Shown: piece after piece, positions 47,405-54,719 of the stretch | How positions within the stretch are numbered: position 1 is the first letter of the stretch | Layout: each line of letters starts with the position of its first letter | Source: Longimicrobiales bacterium | Lineage (GTDB): Bacteria; Gemmatimonadota; Gemmatimonadetes; Longimicrobiales; Gaopeijiaceae | Assembly: GCA_965226375.1 (NCBI GenBank) | Contig: CBDDCX010000007.1 | Location: forward strand, 224,001 to 288,000 | Direction of reading: 5' to 3' | DNA length: 64,000 nt | Position numbers and translations under genes: made by a program | The notes under the pieces: model-generated | Database searches by the model: none | Told to the model about the DNA's origin: nothing | Seen by the model: only the letters and a program-made list of their open reading frames with translations

Positions 47405-47509
47405 TGCACGGAGTGAGTGATGTCTTAGCGCATCCCGCGACCCTTGCGTGTCCCGTTGCCCCTGAGCAAGGTTCGCTGGCTCTTCCGAGGGGAAAGATTA
47501 ATGAGCAAA

Positions 47510-48040
47510 GGGGGTATTCCCCGCACTCCAGCCTCCACGCCCCCGACATAGCTCTCGTCCACTTGCACAACGCCGCTCAGCTGGTCGCGATCCGGTCGGA
47601 CCATGGCCCGGCGGAGCTTGTGGAGCCAGACCCACGCTGTCTTGTAGCTTCCCAGTCCGAGCACGCGCTGGAGCCCGAGAGCATTGGCTCCGTATTTCTG
47701 GCTCGTGAGCTCCCAGGCAGCGAGAAACCACAGACGCAGGGGCGAGCGCGTGCGGTGGAACACGGTTCCCGCCAGCACCGAGGTCTGCCTTCGACAGTGT
47801 GGGCAGACGAGACGCCCCCGCGATGCTCGCCAGACCTCTCCCAACCCGCCACAGCCCACGCACACAAACCCTTCCGGCCAGCGCAGACCCTCCACGTACT
47901 CCAGGCATGCCGCATCGTCGGGGAAGAACTCGTCCAGCTCCAGCCGCGTACGGGGATAGTCCACGCCGCCACGGAGCTGAGAAGCCGGAACCGCCATGAC
48001 CACAACATGTAGTGGGCGGTGGACTTAAGGCAATACCCCA
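47510..48040 (-). mobile_element. Internally deleted copy of the IS1595 element
   Basis: Matches 17551-~18072, joined directly to the last ~12 bp of the right IR. Confidence 0.9.
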
Positions 48041-48227
48041 TATACCTCATACGTTCACGGCGCGGCGTCCGCAGATCTGGATTGTGACGGAGACATCGTC
48101 CGTTCGGTGTGAGCCGCCGCTGGCGGAATCCCGTGGCCACGCCTTCCTAACACAACTTGAAAGCACGCCCCCTGTGGGTACCGTGGAGTTGCGAAACGAC
48201 CATGGACCACAGCAGAGGGCGGCTCTC

Positions 48228-49319
48228 ATGAAGCGGAACACCAAGTATGTGGGACTCGACGTGCACCAGGCAATGACGGTGGCGACGGTTCGGGGCCAAG
48301 GGGGACGAGTGATCGCGCGCAGCGTGATCGAGACGGGGGACGCATCGATCACGGAGTTCTTCAGCGCGATGCGCGGGTCGGTGCACGTAGTGTTCGAAGA
48401 GGGAACCCAGGCGCAGTGGCTCTACGACCTACTGAGTCCTCGTGTGGATCGGGTGATCGTATGCGATCGCAGAGGCGAAAAGCGTTCGGGCAACAAGGGG
48501 GACCAGGTCGATGCCGACGAGCTGTCGGAGCGGTTGCGGTGTGGCGGGCTGCGCGCGGTATACCACGGCGCACACGGCCGATCTGATCTCAAGGAGCTGA
48601 CTCGAGCCTATCGCAACCTCGTCGAAGACGGCACGCGCGTGATGCTGCGGCTCAAGGCACTCTTCCGTGCGCGGGCGATCCGAACCACGGGCGGCGGAGT
48701 CTACCAGCCGAAGCAGCGCGGCGCCTGGCTCGCGCAGCTACCGGAGGGAGGAGCTCGTCTACGAGCCGAGACCCTGTACGCTCAGCTCGATGTGCTTCGG
48801 GCTCAGCGCAAGAAGACCAAGGCGGCCATGGTCGCCGAGGCGAAGCGTGATCCGGCCTTCGGGGTGCTCGAGACGATCCCCTACTTTGGGCCCGTGCGTA
48901 TCGCACTGTTGCTAGCAACCATGGGTACGCCGTGGCGCTTCCGCACGAAGCGCAACCTGTGGGCCTATGCCGGACTCGCCGTGGTCACGCGCTCGAGCTC
49001 CGACTACGAGTTGTTCGATGGGCGTCCTCGCCGGCGGCGGCGCCCTCCGCTCACTCGAGGGTTGAACCGCAACCACAATCGAGTCCTCAAGAATGTCTTC
49101 AAGGGCGCCGCCAACGTAGCCATTGGACGTCCGGGCCCATTCCTGGACTTCTATAACCGAATGCTCGAGCGCGGGATGCGCGAGGAGCTCGCCCGTGTGA
49201 CGCTGGCTCGCAAGCTCGCAGCGCTCACCCTTCGTCTACTCAAAACCGGAGAAGTCTTTGATCCGACGCAGCTGAGTCGACCCCAAACATTGAGGGGGGT
49301 TCATCGTCCTAGGGTGTAG
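48228..49319 (+). CDS. IS110-family DEDD recombinase/transposase
   Basis: YVGLDVH, FEEG, NKGDQVDA, YAGLAVVTRSSS, LARKL. Confidence 0.93.
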   Translation: MKRNTKYVGLDVHQAMTVATVRGQGGRVIARSVIETGDASITEFFSAMRGSVHVVFEEGTQAQWLYDLLSPRVDRVIVCDRRGEKRSGNKGDQVDADELSERLRCGGLRAVYHGAHGRSDLKELTRAYRNLVEDGTRVMLRLKALFRARAIRTTGGGVYQPKQRGAWLAQLPEGGARLRAETLYAQLDVLRAQRKKTKAAMVAEAKRDPAFGVLETIPYFGPVRIALLLATMGTPWRFRTKRNLWAYAGLAVVTRSSSDYELFDGRPRRRRRPPLTRGLNRNHNRVLKNVFKGAANVAIGRPGPFLDFYNRMLERGMREELARVTLARKLAALTLRLLKTGEVFDPTQLSRPQTLRGVHRPRV

Positions 49320-49720
49320 GGGTGCAGCGCATGACCTTCGATCCCTTGGAACGTCGAATCCCTGGACGACGGTGCGGGAGGCAGTCTCAAGCAAATCCGT
49401 ACGCCCGGCTCGCAGTCATGCCGAGGCACGATCCTAACTCCAGGCCCTTCCGCAGAACCCGAAGAAGTGTCAGGCCGGCCCCGAGGCTGAGTCTCAGATA
49501 GAACCATGGTTCGCGTCGTACGACCTAGGTCCACTCAATCAAGTCCAGACGGATCGACCATCCAAGTGAGGATCATCGTGGCCGACACGAAGACTGACTC
49601 ATCCAGCACACCACTCCCTGACGATCCGGTCATTCCAGCCAAGCGGAGGCTGAGTGCCAAGCCCAACACGGCTTCGCAGACAGCCGGGGCGGAGCCCGGC
49701 CTTGACACTCTCTTTCATAG
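49320..49720 (+). ncRNA. Putative bridge/seek RNA region of the IS110 element
   Basis: Four short segments match the two strands of the target and of the donor junction (see findings). Confidence 0.65.
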
Positions 49721-49806
49721 AACCAATTTGCGATCCTGCTGCGCCCCGAGGATGCCAGATCGCGATAGCGCTACGCGAGTTTTCCGCAGCCATCGCTGGT
49801 TAGGGC
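49721..49806 (-). repeat. attC-like hairpin site interrupted by IS110 (other end at 48144-48151)
   Basis: AACCAATTTGCGATCCTGCTGCG ... CGCAGCCATCGCTGGTTAGGGC imperfect inverted repeat. Confidence 0.65.
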
Positions 49807-49836
49807 GTAGACTCACGGGTCTGCGGTCGTGCTGGC

Positions 49837-50358
49837 TCAGGGCTCGTTACTGACTAGGAGGTCCGGCGCCGACGCATTTGATCCCGACTGCAGCTCCAAA
49901 GGGTTTCGCTTCGCCAGCGAAACGGTTGCGGCTGCCAACCCCGCGGTAACGGCCCCGTAGGAGGCAGCACCCGCAACAAGGGCAGTCAGCTGCAAGGCGA
50001 TAGGGATAGGGAGACCCAGTATACCTTCGGCCATCCTGACCGCGTCCGACAGGCTTGCGACCGCGATCGTACCCACTAGGGCCACGGCAGCCCCCACGAC
50101 GAAGCCCCACAATGCGGCTCGGTGGGCCGTCAAGTCATCGAGGGTTCGCCGTCCTTCCATCACTGACAGAAGACCGCCGAAACCCACACCGAGGACAAGC
50201 CCAGCGACCCCTGCTACGACACCGAGGCCCAGAGCCGAACTCAAGAACGAAGTCGTGGAGATCAAACCCCCGAGTGCCGTGCCAACGGCGCCAAGGGCGA
50301 TACCCCAGATGGTCCCGATCCCCAGGGCAGCTTTCAACTTCCTTGTCAGGTTTCCCAC
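49837..50358 (-). CDS. Hypothetical membrane protein (putative cassette gene)
   Basis: Gly/Ala-rich multi-TM protein with a GGGAG RBS. Confidence 0.65.
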   Translation of the reverse strand: MGNLTRKLKAALGIGTIWGIALGAVGTALGGLISTTSFLSSALGLGVVAGVAGLVLGVGFGGLLSVMEGRRTLDDLTAHRAALWGFVVGAAVALVGTIAVASLSDAVRMAEGILGLPIPIALQLTALVAGAASYGAVTAGLAAATVSLAKRNPLELQSGSNASAPDLLVSNEP

Positions 50359-50421
50359 TGCTTCTCCCTACCGGCTAGCCTCTTCTACGCCCTAGCTAGT
50401 CGTTGTACTACGAAAACTCAT

Positions 50422-50586
50422 GTCCTATGACGCGCTCACTGACTCACGACGCGGAGGTGGCGTAGCCACCGGAATGTCCGCGAAGCGGCCGAGCCGTTGC
50501 TCATCGTAAGATCCAAGCTGCCGTAGCGCGACATGCGCGGAGGGGCACTTCGGCGGAGGTGGTGGTGAGTACCGGCCTCATCCGAC
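50422..50586 (-). repeat. Degenerate attC-like site
   Basis: GTCCTATGACGCGCTCACTGACTCACGACGCGGAG resembles GTCCGATAACGGGCTCACGCGCTCCCGCGCGGAG. Core triplets are mutated. Confidence 0.45.
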
Positions 50587-50660
50587 GGCGCAAGTTGCGT
50601 CCATTGGCGCCGACATCAAGGCGGCCTTGTCATAAAACAGATATCTGCCTATTAATTATC

Positions 50661-51026
50661 ATGCGTCGAAAACCGGGTGAGCTCATTCCGCTGGAAATAG
50701 AGATCCTTGAAGCCGCTGTGGCTCTCCAGCGGGAAGGCATCCCGGCCTTCCACGGTTATTCGCTCGCAAAGAGCATGAAGACCGACTCCGATCGCCGGAT
50801 GCTCACGGCCCACGGAACCCTATACCGCGCGCTTCATCGATTGCAGCGCGCAGATTTGCTCGAGGGGTTCTGGGAGGATCCTGTTGAGGCGGAGCAAGAA
50901 AGCCGCCCGCGCCGTCGTCTGTATCGGCTCACAGCGTTAGCGGTGGTCGCGCTCAGCCGCGCCCGAGCGCGGCAGCGCGCCAGCGGCGAACTACCTTCGC
51001 TAGAAGGTGGGCTGGAGGTTCCATGA
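50661..51026 (+). CDS. PadR-family transcriptional regulator
   Basis: FHGYSLAK, HGTLYRALHRL, RPRRRLYRLT. Confidence 0.88.
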   Translation: MRRKPGELIPLEIEILEAAVALQREGIPAFHGYSLAKSMKTDSDRRMLTAHGTLYRALHRLQRADLLEGFWEDPVEAEQESRPRRRLYRLTALAVVALSRARARQRASGELPSLEGGLEVP

Positions 51027-51739
51027 GCGCAGCCCGGCGGATCGCCGTGAACGTCGCACGCACCTGGGTGCATCTCTACACGAGCCGTATGCCGACGGAG
51101 TTGCGCGTGACCAGGCGCGCGGAGATCGATGCCGACCTTTGGGACCACGAGAAGGATGCGGAAGAAGGGGGTGTACCCCCGCTGGTCACTGCGCTGGAGA
51201 TCTTCCTGCGAACCTGTCTCGGCGTCCTGGACGACTTGAGCTGGCGTTTCGAAGCCCGTCAACCGGGAGTTGGCGCTTCACGAAAAGGAAGGAGTACCAT
51301 GATGGACTTCTCAGCAAGACAAACACGGTGGATGGGGATTCTCTCAGTCGCCGGCGGTGCGATCGTGATGCTGATGCTCGTGGTGATTCCTACCCTCCAG
51401 TCGTACTTCGCTTCGGCCGGAATTCCGCTGCCGCTCCCGACCCGCATCGTCATCGGTAGGTCCGCGTTCCTGACGGGCTATTGGTGGGCCTGCGTCGCGG
51501 GGATCGTCGCCTTTTCCCTGGCCGTTAGACAGCTCGACAAGATTCTGCGGGACACGATGCTCACCAGGGTCGCCGCCTTCTACGACGACGAGGTGGACAG
51601 CGCGGTGGAGGCGCTGCTCACGAAGATGGAGCCGATCATGATCGTCGGGCTGGGCGTTGTAGTGGGTGGACTGATTATGGCCATGTACTTACCGATGTTC
51701 GATGTTGGTCAACGCGGTGAAGTAAGACGTTGCTATTGA
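51023..51739 (+). CDS. PadR-partner membrane protein fused to type II secretion F/PilC-derived segments
   Basis: N-terminal WVHLYT...RRAEIDADLWDH. C-terminal LPLPTRIVI and FYDDEVDSAVEALLTKMEPIMIV...MYLPMF. Confidence 0.65.
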   Translation: MSAARRIAVNVARTWVHLYTSRMPTELRVTRRAEIDADLWDHEKDAEEGGVPPLVTALEIFLRTCLGVLDDLSWRFEARQPGVGASRKGRSTMMDFSARQTRWMGILSVAGGAIVMLMLVVIPTLQSYFASAGIPLPLPTRIVIGRSAFLTGYWWACVAGIVAFSLAVRQLDKILRDTMLTRVAAFYDDEVDSAVEALLTKMEPIMIVGLGVVVGGLIMAMYLPMFDVGQRGEVRRCY

Positions 51740-51882
51740 CAGAGTTTCGGCACGATAACGAAGAACCTACCCGGCCAGCACGGAACCGTGCGAAGCAGTT
51801 GCGGGGAATCCTGGGCCAAATGGCGCCCGATGTCCTTAGTGGAGAGGCGCGAGATTGAGGACGACGCGGCGAGGTCTCTTAC

Positions 51883-52386
51883 CTAGGGACACGCGTCTAT
51901 CAGCGCGAGGAAGTCCCCTCGGAGTGAGTTGATCGTAGTCCGCCACATCTCCGGAATCTCGATCTCGCGACCCCGGCAGGCCAATCCGTGGTAGGTGTCC
52001 CATTCGGCGTCCCCCAGCACACCTATCTGATGCTGAACGTAGGCGTTCTCCATGTTCCGCCAGAACACCCGCCGCACGTTGAAGTATTGGAGCTGATCGA
52101 GGCCGCTTAATCGCTCTCGGAGCGAGTCGTTGCTGGCCCTGTACATGATCAGAGAGAGATCGGGGTCTGTCCCGATCACAAGCAAATACTCGTTAGATGC
52201 CCGAATCATCTCTTGGTACGTCGCCGCTCGAGAAGCGGCGGTGTTCTGGCGGATTTCGAGGCCGACGAAGACAAGGGAGACAATCACTGCGATGCCGCCG
52301 AAGACCTCGGTCAACGACGTTAGTCTCGAAGGTGCTTTTGCCAAGCCGGCCTCCTCTGGCTTCTTCGTGGGACGGCGAAAGCCCAT
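51883..52386 (-). CDS. Hypothetical protein (putative cassette gene)
   Basis: ATG directly follows GTTATCGGAC. IAVIVSLVFVGLEIRQNT membrane anchor. Confidence 0.65.
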   Translation of the reverse strand: MGFRRPTKKPEEAGLAKAPSRLTSLTEVFGGIAVIVSLVFVGLEIRQNTAASRAATYQEMIRASNEYLLVIGTDPDLSLIMYRASNDSLRERLSGLDQLQYFNVRRVFWRNMENAYVQHQIGVLGDAEWDTYHGLACRGREIEIPEMWRTTINSLRGDFLALIDACP

Positions 52387-52540
52387 GTCCGATAACGGGC
52401 TCACGCGCTCCCGCGCGGAGTGAGCGTCGGCGAACGGAGTGCCCCGAAGGGACGGGCCCGTTGGTCTCCACGATAGTGTCACAACAGGTAATGCGCGAAG
52501 GCGCGCCGAAGGGTCCGGCGGGAGAGCAGCGTTAACCGAC
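52387..52540 (-). repeat. attC-like site (long form)
   Basis: GATAACGGGCTCACGCGCTCCCGCGCGGA ... TCCGGCGGGAGAGCAGCGTTAACC. Confidence 0.75.
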
Positions 52541-52557
52541 GTACCGACCTAGCGTTC

Positions 52558-52785
52558 TCAGACGTGTCCGAACATTTGCTCGAAGAGTTCACGTGAACGC
52601 TGCAACCCTTCTTCGGTGAGGGCGACAGATTTCCTCTTCGAAATCGGATCTCCAATCATCCCTTTCTCATGGAGACGGTTTAGAGCCTCCCAGTCGAACC
52701 CCTGCCAGGAACGGATTCCGTCATGCAGCGTCAGCCACATCAAAGCCAGAACGGCCTCGTCGACTTTTGTCTCGTCGAATTCCAT
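52558..52785 (-). CDS. DUF6429-like small protein (putative cassette gene)
   Basis: KVDEAVLALMWL...WQGFDWEALNRLHEKG...KSVALTEEG. Confidence 0.75.
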   Translation of the reverse strand: MEFDETKVDEAVLALMWLTLHDGIRSWQGFDWEALNRLHEKGMIGDPISKRKSVALTEEGLQRSRELFEQMFGHV

Positions 52786-52821
52786 AAAGTGCCATCCATG
52801 AACTCACTGTTCATCCAGTAT

Positions 52822-52871
52822 GTCGTCTAACGGGCTCACGCGCTCCCGCGCGGAGAGCGGCGTTACGCGAC
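52822..52871 (-). repeat. attC-like site (short form)
   Basis: GTCTAACGGGCTCACGCGCTCCCGCGCGGAGAGCGGCGTTACGC. 28 bp are identical to 52393-52420. Confidence 0.75.
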
Positions 52872-52886
52872 GCGCGTACGCGCAAA

Positions 52887-53141
52887 CTATCGATACACGT
52901 CTCGGCGGTGGCCAATCTTCACGACGATGACGACCTGGGCGTCATCGTCGACTTCGTACAAGACACGATGGGATCCCTGGCGTACCCGATACCGAGATCC
53001 ACTCGTAAGCTTCTCACAGCCACGAGGCCGGGGGTCCTCGGCCAGAGCATGGATGCGCTCAACGACCCGGCCGCGATCCGCTTCCTGGAGAGCTTTCAGT
53101 TCTTTGACGGCAGAGGGCTTGATCTGGAGATCATAGCTCAC
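52887..53141 (-). CDS. RelE/ParE-family toxin
   Basis: DPRPRGCEKL, YRVRQGSHRVLYEV, KIGHRRDVYR. Confidence 0.92.
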   Translation of the reverse strand: MSYDLQIKPSAVKELKALQEADRGRVVERIHALAEDPRPRGCEKLTSGSRYRVRQGSHRVLYEVDDDAQVVIVVKIGHRRDVYR

Positions 53142-53364
53142 CGCTCTGCCTCATCTCCTGCAGCACATCGGAGAAGGAGAGGCTTGGCTCGTTCGCGCGT
53201 GCCTCAAACGCCTCGAGATCCTCTGCGTCTTCAGAGAGAATCCCGAGGACTGCCTCGTTCACGAGGTCGGATACACTTTGCTCCGTCTCGGCGGCTTTGA
53301 GTCGCAAGGCTCGATGTACTGAAGGAGAGAAGTAGACCGTCGTTCGCTTTGTTTTCGTGCTCAT
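53131..53364 (-). CDS. CopG/RHH antitoxin
   Basis: KRTTVYF...ALRLKAA...SVSDLVNEAV with an acidic C-terminus. Overlaps the toxin start. Confidence 0.85.
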   Translation of the reverse strand: MSTKTKRTTVYFSPSVHRALRLKAAETEQSVSDLVNEAVLGILSEDAEDLEAFEARANEPSLSFSDVLQEMRQSGEL

Positions 53365-53415
53365 GCTGCCACTATAGCGTTATAGCGCCACAACGTCCAG
53401 ACGTTTTTCTAGCGT

Positions 53416-53567
53416 GTCGCGTAACGGCCCCACTCCCGACACCCTTGTCTCAAAGCAGGCATTCAGCGCCCGTATTGCGACGTATGTCGGTATGGCCTTA
53501 TGTGCGACGTGGGGAATTCCGCACCGCACCGTCCAACTCCCCAGCCTCGGGAGGGGCGCGCTCAGAC
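53416..53567 (-). repeat. Integrase-proximal att-like site
   Basis: GTCGCGTAACGGCCCCACTCCCGA ... TCGGGAGGGGC. The first 10 bp are the exact reverse complement of 52862-52871. Confidence 0.6.
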
Positions 53568-53613: not shown

Positions 53614-54537
53614 CTACTCCTCGTCCTTCTCCTCAGGGCCCCCGAACAGCGTATCCGCAGGACTGATCACCTTTACCAGAGCTTGGTTCGCCACATGCGT
53701 GTAGATCTCGGTGGTCGCCGACTTGGCGTGTCCCAACAGCTGTTGGATGTAGCGTTGTTGCGTCCCACTCTCAACGAGGTGCGTTGCGAACGAGTGCCGC
53801 AGTATGTGTGGAGTGACCGTCCTCCGGATTCTGGCTCGCTCAGCGGCCTTCTTCACAACGCGTTGGAGGCTCCGAGCGTTGTAGTGCCGATCGGGCCTTT
53901 CTCCTGGAAACAGCCATTTGTCCAGACGCTCAGTCCGCGCGTAGTCCCTGAGAGCTTCGAGGGTCACGGCGGAGAGCATCACATACCGGTCCTTCCGCCC
54001 TTTTCCCTTTCGCACTCTGATCATGCCACGGTCGGACTCGATGTCAGTGACCTGGAGGCGGATCACTTCGCCGACGCGTAGACCGCCGGAGTAGAGCACC
54101 AGCAGCATCGCTCGGTGCTTCAAGTTGGTGACGGCGTCGATGAGGCGCCGAACCTCGTCGCGGCTCAGGACCTTCGGCAACGATTTGTCTCGTCGCGGCC
54201 GAGGCAGCTCGAGCTTGGCGACCCCTCTACGCAGCACCTTCGAATGCAGAAACTTGAGCGCGCTCACCGCCTGATTCACGTAACTATACGAGCAGCCCTC
54301 ACGCATCAGACGCAGCAGCCACGAACGCATTTCCTCGGTCGTGGCGTTGGGGTCAGCGCTCGTCCGTCCCAGATAGAAGCGTTTGACGTGTGATCCGTAC
54401 AGCCGGCGTGTCTGTCGGGAGAAGCCGCGAAGTCGCATTTCCTCGTCCATGCGATCGAGTTGGTCTCCCAGCCACTCGGGTGCGTCGCCAGTCTCGGTCC
54501 TTTTTCGGTCGCGGCCCGTCCCTCGTCTCTTCGCCAT
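53614..54537 (-). CDS. IntI-like tyrosine recombinase without the integron-specific insertion
   Basis: SAM-like N-terminus (MRLRGFSRQT..Y, NQAVSALKFL), LPKVLS, GLRVGE, GKGRKDR, HILRHSFATHL, LLGH, IYTHV. Confidence 0.9.
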   Translation of the reverse strand: MAKRRGTGRDRKRTETGDAPEWLGDQLDRMDEEMRLRGFSRQTRRLYGSHVKRFYLGRTSADPNATTEEMRSWLLRLMREGCSYSYVNQAVSALKFLHSKVLRRGVAKLELPRPRRDKSLPKVLSRDEVRRLIDAVTNLKHRAMLLVLYSGGLRVGEVIRLQVTDIESDRGMIRVRKGKGRKDRYVMLSAVTLEALRDYARTERLDKWLFPGERPDRHYNARSLQRVVKKAAERARIRRTVTPHILRHSFATHLVESGTQQRYIQQLLGHAKSATTEIYTHVANQALVKVISPADTLFGGPEEKDEE

Positions 54538-54719
54538 CACGGACGCTCCCACCGGGGGCAGGGCGATGCCATGGCTCTTTCGGCGGGCGTACGGGCCGGA
54601 CACGGCGATACGCCCCGAACCGGACGCGGCCAATCCCCAATGACGGCTTCCGCGATAACCGAGCCTACTATACAATTAGTTGACACTCGACGGATCCGCC
54701 GTCTGCTTCAGGAAGCCCA

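What the first reader, a model, noticed from the sequence alone, without database searches (positions are those of the whole stretch)
49381..49510. Readable bridge/seek RNA guides in the IS110 3' non-coding region
Seen, in order: GCAAATCCGT (49391; reverse complement ACGGATTTGC vs target ACCAATTTGC), TCCTAAC (49432; exact target left flank plus core), AAGAAGTGT (49462; reverse complement ACACTTCTT vs donor ACACAACTT) and ATAGAAC (49498; exact donor right end plus core). Known: IS110-family RNAs pair with both strands of target and donor. Inference: the programmed target is about TCCTAACGGATTTGC, and TAACGG is how the other array sites begin. This suggests a programmable recombinase with a 3-nt AAC core aimed at cassette att sites. 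Each match is short, so the support comes from their number and order.
Basis: partly seen in the sequence, partly recalled or inferred. Interest (0 to 1): 0.85.

Follow-up and report, generated by a model that had tools for sequence, protein, structure and literature searches.

The report
RNA-guided jumping gene targeting cassette junctions
This is the guide RNA of a bacterial jumping gene that finds its landing site by base-pairing, a known mechanism, here in a distant lineage that lands on the junctions of swappable gene cassettes.

Summary
The four motifs are at the stated places. They are the guide segments of a bridge/seek RNA (about 49373-49512) in the 3' end of a 1,572-bp IS110-family element with IS1111-type layout. 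Across homologues the guides change with the flanks: right target 5.1/7 matches vs 2.2 shuffled, 0 of 20,000, repeated on later-fetched loci. The two-loop scaffold shows compensatory pairs. Corrections: the core is 2 nt (AC), not AAC, because the base before it follows the target guide, not the donor, in 15 of 42 loci. The TAACGG sites of this array match only 3-4/8 and are empty. The element lands at the GTT crossover box (R') of attC-like sites, antisense to the cassettes; 29 of 41 close-relative right flanks begin with the att arm. Described IS1111-attC elements insert inside the site near its other end. In this genome 2 of 5 full copies sit in ordinary genes, matching the right guide only with a one-base slip. 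Verdict: real, mechanism known, new lineage and landing point. Expression and activity are not shown.

The parts
48150..49723 (+). IS110-family insertion sequence, 1,572 bp plus the second copy of the AC core (cores at 48150-48151 and 49722-49723)
   Evidence: Ends fixed by 8 left ends and 6 right ends with different flanks in this genome; 5 full copies
48228..49319 (+). DEDD recombinase, 363 aa; D11, E57/E58, D92, D95; S257 (S or T in 22 of 22 aligned) as likely nucleophile
   Evidence: Pfam PF01548 and PF02371 above cut-off; alignment; model pLDDT 87.5, best fold match IS621. Role of S257 is inferred.
49373..49512 (+). Predicted bridge RNA core: target-binding loop, then donor-binding loop
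   Evidence: 96.4% of cells paired, 11 of 20 pairs with two-sided changes in 36 sequences. Transcript ends not known.
49391..49400 (+). Right target guide (8 nt plus core); pairs with the top strand right of the core
   Evidence: Covariation
49432..49438 (+). Left target guide (5 nt plus core); pairs with the bottom strand left of the core
   Evidence: Covariation
49462..49470 (+). Right donor guide; core plus 2 nt, two mismatches, then 3 nt
   Evidence: 7 of 9 match here; positions 3 and 7 covary weakly (p 0.011 and 0.022; 15 of 20 distinct pairs used)
49498..49504 (+). Left donor guide
   Evidence: Identical to the element's last 7 nt in 62 of 65 loci, including ATAGAAG and CTAGGAG variants
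48157..48163 (+). Left subterminal inverted repeat, 7 nt from the end counting the core
   Evidence: TTGAAAG against CTTTCAT, 6 of 7 complementary
49712..49718 (+). Right subterminal inverted repeat, 3 nt before the core
49702..49707 (+). -35 box TTGACA of a predicted circle-junction promoter (its -10 would be 48153-48158, only 2 of 6 consensus here)
   Evidence: At 17 nt spacing A2 and T6 are kept in 21 of 25 distinct junctions (the -35 was the search anchor). No promoter in the linear element. Inferred.
49724..49805 (-). Body of the invaded attC-like site; R'' box at 49799-49805, its R' box split by the element (remainder 48145-48151)
   Evidence: Empty site folds as an 89-nt hairpin, -19.4 kcal/mol; -15.4 after insertion, with the AAC/GTT pairing kept
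49837..50358 (-). Cassette gene upstream of the invaded site (no Pfam family)
   Evidence: Stop codon about 30 nt before the R'' box
53614..54675 (-). Tyrosine recombinase heading the array; lacks the IntI-specific insertion (start codon uncertain)
   Evidence: 20 residues where VchIntIA has 62; below the TIGR02249 cut-off, 205.5 of 265 bits

Best explanation
An IS110-family element with IS1111-type layout encodes a bridge RNA in its 3' end. Shown by sequence comparison: four guide segments in two internal loops match, and covary with, target and donor around a 2-nt AC core; the element is recently mobile; it lands mostly at the R' GTT box of attC-like sites, antisense to the cassette genes. 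Inferred from IS621 and ISEc11/ISKpn4 work: the element excises as a circle, the joined ends make a promoter, the RNA binds the recombinase, the left guides pair with bottom strands and the right guides with top strands, and strands are exchanged at the core. The left guide reads the conserved start of a cassette (YCTA-AC) and the 7-8 nt right guide reads the att spacer, so point changes in the right guide retune the element to each host's att family. This copy's guide has no perfect site in this host and makes do with two-mismatch att sites and slipped sites in genes.
For: Right target: 64 loci, 34 distinct guides, 5.13/7 vs 2.19 shuffled, 0 of 20,000; left target: 53 loci, 19 guides, 4.18/7 vs 2.33, 0 of 20,000. 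Six right-guide variants within the close clade: the true pairing is the best of 720. Later-fetched loci: 19 loci, 11 guides, 5.36/7 vs 2.98, 0 of 20,000. Scaffold covariation. Five full copies at 99.4-100% identity with different flanks. Att arm at 29 of 41 close-clade right flanks; closed att hairpin at 27 of 84 right flanks of the whole set vs 22 of 300 random AAC sites. The gene beside the left end lies on the opposite strand in 16 of 31 flanks and on the element's strand in 2, with 13 unassigned. Guide order as reported for IS1111 seekRNAs.
Against: No experiment. The single strand folds no better than shuffles, and holding all four guides open costs about 9 kcal/mol. This element is the worst matcher of its clade, 3.83/8 in register over its 6 right flanks. 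L122 (2/7) and L083 (1/7) do not fit their guides. Related loci are not independent, so the shuffle tests overstate significance. The recombinase scores below the NCBIfam IS110 cut-off (118.3 vs 140). More distant homologues, for example most Acidobacteriota loci, do not land in att sites.
Confidence: 0.9

Rival explanations
1. Only the target loop is a guide (seekRNA reading); the donor ends are recognised by protein through the inverted repeats, and the donor-like segments in the RNA are relics.
For: The right donor guide covaries at only 2 of 9 positions and its core positions mismatch in several clades. Siddiquee et al. found short target-matching RNAs sufficient for movement.
Against: The left donor guide equals the element end in 62 of 65 loci and changes with it in two distant lineages. 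The donor loop is closed by stems with two-sided changes.
Confidence: 0.12
2. The target is the folded att hairpin or a protein-read structure; the guide matches follow from long residence next to att sites.
For: Most close-clade insertions are in att sites; this copy mismatches at the two bases next to the core.
Against: Insertions in ordinary genes also match the guides, and homologues with non-att targets match their own guides.
Confidence: 0.04
3. The core is 3 nt (AAC).
For: All 8 left flanks and the donor of this element have AAC.
Against: In 15 of 42 loci the target has GAC or CAC, tracked by the left target guide, while the donor keeps AAC. These are homologues at about 46-64% identity, not this element itself.
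Confidence: 0.07
4. The slipped matches in this genome are chance or were made later, for example by the array's recombinase swapping the right flank at the retained GTT.
For: Slips are rare elsewhere (1 of 19 later-fetched loci, L118). The copy at C8:2209702 has a cassette on its left and a cut reading frame on its right. A near-perfect slipped site is empty. The slip measure was defined after seeing the data.
Against: Two sites lie inside genes whose rejoined frames align without gaps to paralogues; their slipped matches have chance rates of 0.0057 and 0.0002.
Confidence: 0.2

Closest known systems
IS1111-attC elements (ISKpn4, ISPst6, ISPa21, ISPa25) and their seekRNAs
   Same: 3' non-coding RNA; top-strand match before bottom-strand match; 7/3-nt end extensions; aimed at attC; inserted antisense to the cassettes (PMC11187229 parts 1-5 of 9 read; PMC3001079 passages).
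   Different: Their target is given as ...TTGAA*CGAATTGTTAG, about 6 nt inside the GTT (PMC13604230 Table 1), near the 5' end of attC. This element inserts at the R' GTT at the 3' end. Six motifs of this clade are absent from the ISfinder-derived protein file while a control motif was found. No direct alignment to those transposases was made. The original papers (Tetu and Holmes 2008; Post and Hall 2009) were not available, so a described subgroup at this end cannot be excluded.
IS621 and ISCro4 bridge recombinases (IS110 group)
   Same: Same fold (Foldseek E 5e-14, TM 0.41-0.46); two loops, four guides, 2-nt core; off-targets with inserted bases were already noted for IS621 (PMC11208160 passages).
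   Different: RNA is 3' rather than 5' of the gene; the right guide comes before the left; core AC (AG in Myxococcota and related homologues) rather than CT; natural right target guide of 7-8 nt rather than 4; 20-22% identity; S/T-A/S instead of the SG motif.
Group IIC-attC introns
   Same: Independent parasites of attC sites, antisense to the array (PMC3001079 passages).
   Different: Retroelements, not DNA recombinases; different landing point.

Membership tests
IS110 family (broad) | DEDD RuvC domain plus C-terminal Tnp domain | tested here: met
   Pfam PF01548 33.5/29 bits and PF02371 41.2/21.3; D11, E57, E58, D92, D95 invariant in 22 sequences; fold matches IS621
IS110 family (broad) | NCBIfam equivalog NF033542 cut-off | tested here: not met
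   118.3 bits vs 140, though matched over profile positions 1-342 of 343 (scanned with residues 1-355)
IS110 family (broad) | Catalytic serine in a G--P----S(T)G motif | tested here: inconclusive
   S or T at position 257 in 22 of 22, but the P and G of the motif are absent
Bridge/seek RNA systems | Structured RNA whose loop segments match and covary with both strands of the target | tested here: met
Bridge/seek RNA systems | Donor-binding loop matching both donor strands | tested here: inconclusive
   Left donor guide 62 of 65 identical; right donor guide weak
Bridge/seek RNA systems | 2-nt core shared by target and donor | tested here: met
   AC; the base before it differs between target and donor in 15 of 42 loci
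Bridge/seek RNA systems | RNA is expressed, binds the recombinase and is required for movement | not testable with these tools
   Only assembled contigs were on offer
IS1111 group | Long non-coding region downstream of the gene; top-strand match first | tested here: met
   About 400 nt 3' vs 76 nt 5'; order as
IS1111 group | Subterminal inverted repeats of 11-13 bp (7-17 in Durrant et al.) with 7/3-nt extensions | tested here: inconclusive
   7/3 layout met; the repeat is only 6 of 7 bp here and 8 bp in L071
IS1111 group | Transposase related to IS1111 over its full length | tested here: inconclusive
   Best plasmid matches about 24-30% identical in the 25 of 95 records listed; clade motifs absent from the ISfinder-derived file; no tree with named IS1111 members was built
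IS1111 group | Circular intermediate with a junction promoter | tested here: inconclusive
   Promoter pattern kept in 21 of 25 junctions; no circle observed
IS1111-attC subgroup | Insertion inside attC near its 5' end, about 6 nt from GTT | tested here: not met
   Insertion is at the R' GTT
Canonical integron (for the invaded array) | Integrase with the IntI-specific insertion | tested here: not met
   About 42 residues missing against VchIntIA; below the TIGR02249 cut-off
Canonical integron (for the invaded array) | Cassettes bounded by AAC...GTT hairpin sites, gene starting after GTT | tested here: met
   the spacers are atypically asymmetric (about 2 vs 6-7 nt)

The most novel reading that the evidence does not exclude
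An uncatalogued IS110 clade has retuned a long right guide, host by host, to the att sites of integron-like arrays whose integrase lacks the IntI insertion. It lands on the very GTT that the array's recombinase would use, and its own right end rebuilds that GTT, so the element becomes the front of the next cassette and can be moved by either enzyme. Its two target guides can also slip by a base against each other. It would be an RNA-programmed cassette, and its guides would be a readable map of where these non-canonical arrays recombine.
Probability: 0.25. Interest if true: 0.7.

Novelty: new variant of a known kind. Interest (0 to 1): 0.42.

Why it matters
The mechanism (IS110/IS1111 bridge or seek RNA) and attC targeting by IS1111 elements are both in print. 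What this adds: a distant recombinase clade with an AC core and a naturally long right target guide, useful as a new scaffold for programmable recombination; a clean natural series of guide retuning among nearly identical elements; a landing point on the cassette crossover triplet, which may freeze cassettes or let the element ride with them; and natural insertions with a one-base slip, which bear on off-target rules for bridge editors.

Tried and rejected
Rfam: no family at the site. Single-strand folding: not significant. A first structure string mis-set one helix; corrected. Sequencing runs: all were contigs. No joint from right end to left end appeared in the 4 of 23 listed runs laid, and the two RNA-library runs covered parts of the element but not 49391-49461; contigs show neither absence nor expression. 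Handshake-guide covariation: listed, no consistent pattern by eye, statistic not completed. Orphan shorter guide at C8:1779380 as the cause of the slipped sites: it fits the -1 site 5/7 against 7/7 for the slipped main guide and does not fit the +1 site (read). A first orientation test by open frames alone was undecided (8 vs 10 of 24); the Pfam test settled it. A loose genome scan for att hairpins was noisy. In-register genome sites with 2 mismatches: 3, all empty, all lacking the A before the core. Searches that found no paper on this clade or this landing point.

Full report
Observation. The four motifs lie at 49391, 49432, 49462 and 49498 in the stated order; all four together occurred in 0 of 5,000 shuffles of the 3' region. 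Rfam has nothing here and the strand alone folds no better than shuffles, so the case rests on comparison.

The element. A 363-aa DEDD recombinase (48228-49319) carries both IS110 Pfam domains, invariant D11/E57/E58/D92/D95 and S or T at 257 in 22 of 22 aligned proteins. Its model matches IS621 and ISCro4 best. It is below the NCBIfam IS110 cut-off. The genome holds 8 left ends and 6 right ends, five full copies at 99.4-100% identity and 6 exact copies of the RNA region. This fixes the ends at AC dinucleotides, 48150-51 and 49722-23. Short inverted repeats lie 7 and 3 nt inside. Joined ends give TTGACA and, 17 nt on, a hexamer with A2 and T6 in 21 of 25 distinct junctions (-35 was the anchor, and the window's own -10 is only 2 of 6). 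The nearest relatives are in Gemmatimonadota and Myxococcota, further ones in Acidobacteriota. 22 of 301 genomes searched in the order, this one and two unpublished ones included, match the 3' region; no other claim uses the unpublished genomes.

The RNA. 36 of the 46 distinct RNA regions found were aligned. A four-helix scaffold has 96.4% of cells paired against 83.4% shuffled, and 11 of 20 pairs change on both sides. The guides fall in its two internal loops, although the window's own minimum-energy fold buries parts of them (about 9 kcal/mol to open). Right target guide vs right flank: 64 loci, 34 guides, 5.13/7 vs 2.19, 0 of 20,000. L056 and L061 were dropped as misparsed; several rows read in a wrong fixed register were left in and lower the score. 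Left target: 53 loci, 19 guides, 4.18/7 vs 2.33, 0 of 20,000, L026 dropped. Kin share both guide and flank, so these tests overstate. The sharper test is inside the close clade (88-95% identity where measured), where six right-guide variants pair best with their own flanks among 720 permutations. Nineteen loci fetched later and holding both RNA and right end gave 5.36/7 vs 2.98, 0 of 20,000; some share guides with the first set. The left donor guide equals the element end in 62 of 65 loci. The right donor guide covaries at positions 3 and 7 only (15 of 20 distinct pairs used).

Core. In 15 of 42 loci with both ends (11 with shifted or misread left ends left out) the target has G or C before AC, the left target guide agrees, and donor and donor guide keep A. 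The core is AC; distant homologues use AG.

Target. The empty site here is an 89-nt hairpin closed by AAC/GTT. The upstream cassette gene ends just before 49805 on the minus strand. Beside the left end of 31 close-clade flanks, Pfam-supported genes run away on the opposite strand in 16 (2 of them mid-gene insertions), on the element's strand in 2, none in 13. Three left flanks in this genome are mirrored 504-800 nt away, as cassette ends are. So the element sits at the R' box, antisense. That G|TT is the integrase crossover point is recalled knowledge of canonical integrons. 29 of 41 close-clade right flanks start with the att arm; 27 of 84 in the whole set close as att hairpins vs 22 of 300 controls. 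The donor's last bases rebuild GTT, and the hybrid still folds (-15.4 vs -19.4 kcal/mol). Homologues with non-att targets have the same donor end, so this is not a special adaptation. The array's recombinase (53614-54675) is co-oriented, upstream of the array, and lacks the IntI insertion, so 'attC-like' is the right word. Its activity is untested.

Poor fit in this host. No in-register site with 0-1 mismatches exists in the assembly (90% complete); three with 2 are empty. Of the five full copies two are in att sites (6/8), one joins a cassette to a cut frame, and two lie in genes whose rejoined frames align without gaps to paralogues. Those two match 7/8 with one extra base and 7/7 with one base missing (chance 0.0057 and 0.0002). 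TTGC starts 3-6 nt after the core in 5 of 6 right flanks vs 1.0% of AAC sites (measure chosen afterwards). Elsewhere one slip was seen in 19 loci (L118), and a near-perfect slipped site here is empty. Durrant et al. already note insertion-tolerant off-targets.

Literature seen. PMC11187229: parts 1-5 of 9 and supplement searches (file 5 unreadable, figures not visible, long runs shown cut; the target logos there may bear on the position claim). PMC11208160, PMC13626964, PMC11616780, PMC3001079, PMC8618304: passages. PMC13604230: passages and the tables section. PMC12288879: abstract. Tetu and Holmes 2008: not held; Post and Hall 2009: reference listing only. Searches found no account of this clade or of IS110 insertion at R'. 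An earlier unchecked note of this scan reports the same pattern in another genome; it is not independent support.

Verdict. Real, and works like a bridge recombinase (0.9). Member of the IS110 family broadly, IS1111-like in layout, not a member of the IS1111-attC subgroup as described in the sources I could read. New variant of a known kind; interest 0.42.

Noticed in passing
window 53614-54675 (-) and array 49724-53430: Integron-like array headed by a co-oriented recombinase without the IntI insertion; att sites have a 2 vs 6-7 nt spacer asymmetry and fall into at least three sequence families. Earlier notes of this scan report such arrays elsewhere.
   Followed up: partly
L010, L011 (G000 C8:1779380-1781190): Decayed orphan copy of the RNA with a right guide one base shorter, no recombinase upstream, split by another element; its guide fits empty half att sites at C8:978131 and C8:913095.
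   Followed up: partly
G000 C8:978131, 913095, 903920, 2266004; L088, L093, L099, L100, L104, L106: Many att 'half sites' keep the R' box and about 55 conserved nt but lack the far GTT; they may be attI-like sites or relics.
   Followed up: no
window 47425-48030: An IS1595-family fragment interrupts the cassette gene left of the element.
   Followed up: no
G000 C7:611374-611929 and C7:674310-675376: A left half and an inverted right half of the element lie 63 kb apart with a 40-bp overlap: possibly one copy split by an inversion, or an assembly effect.
   Followed up: no
L020: Right junction has AGC where the left has AAC, as expected if a mismatched target core was resolved differently at the two ends.
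   Followed up: no
L014-L026, L032: One Longimicrobiales chromosome holds 14 copies with a guide matching its att sites nearly perfectly, several in neighbouring cassettes.
   Followed up: partly
L122: Element in a complete att site whose spacer does not match its guide (2/7); a candidate for flank exchange by the array recombinase after insertion.
   Followed up: no
window 52887-53364 (-): ParE-type toxin with ribbon-helix-helix antitoxin as the cassette nearest the recombinase; DUF6429 next.
   Followed up: no
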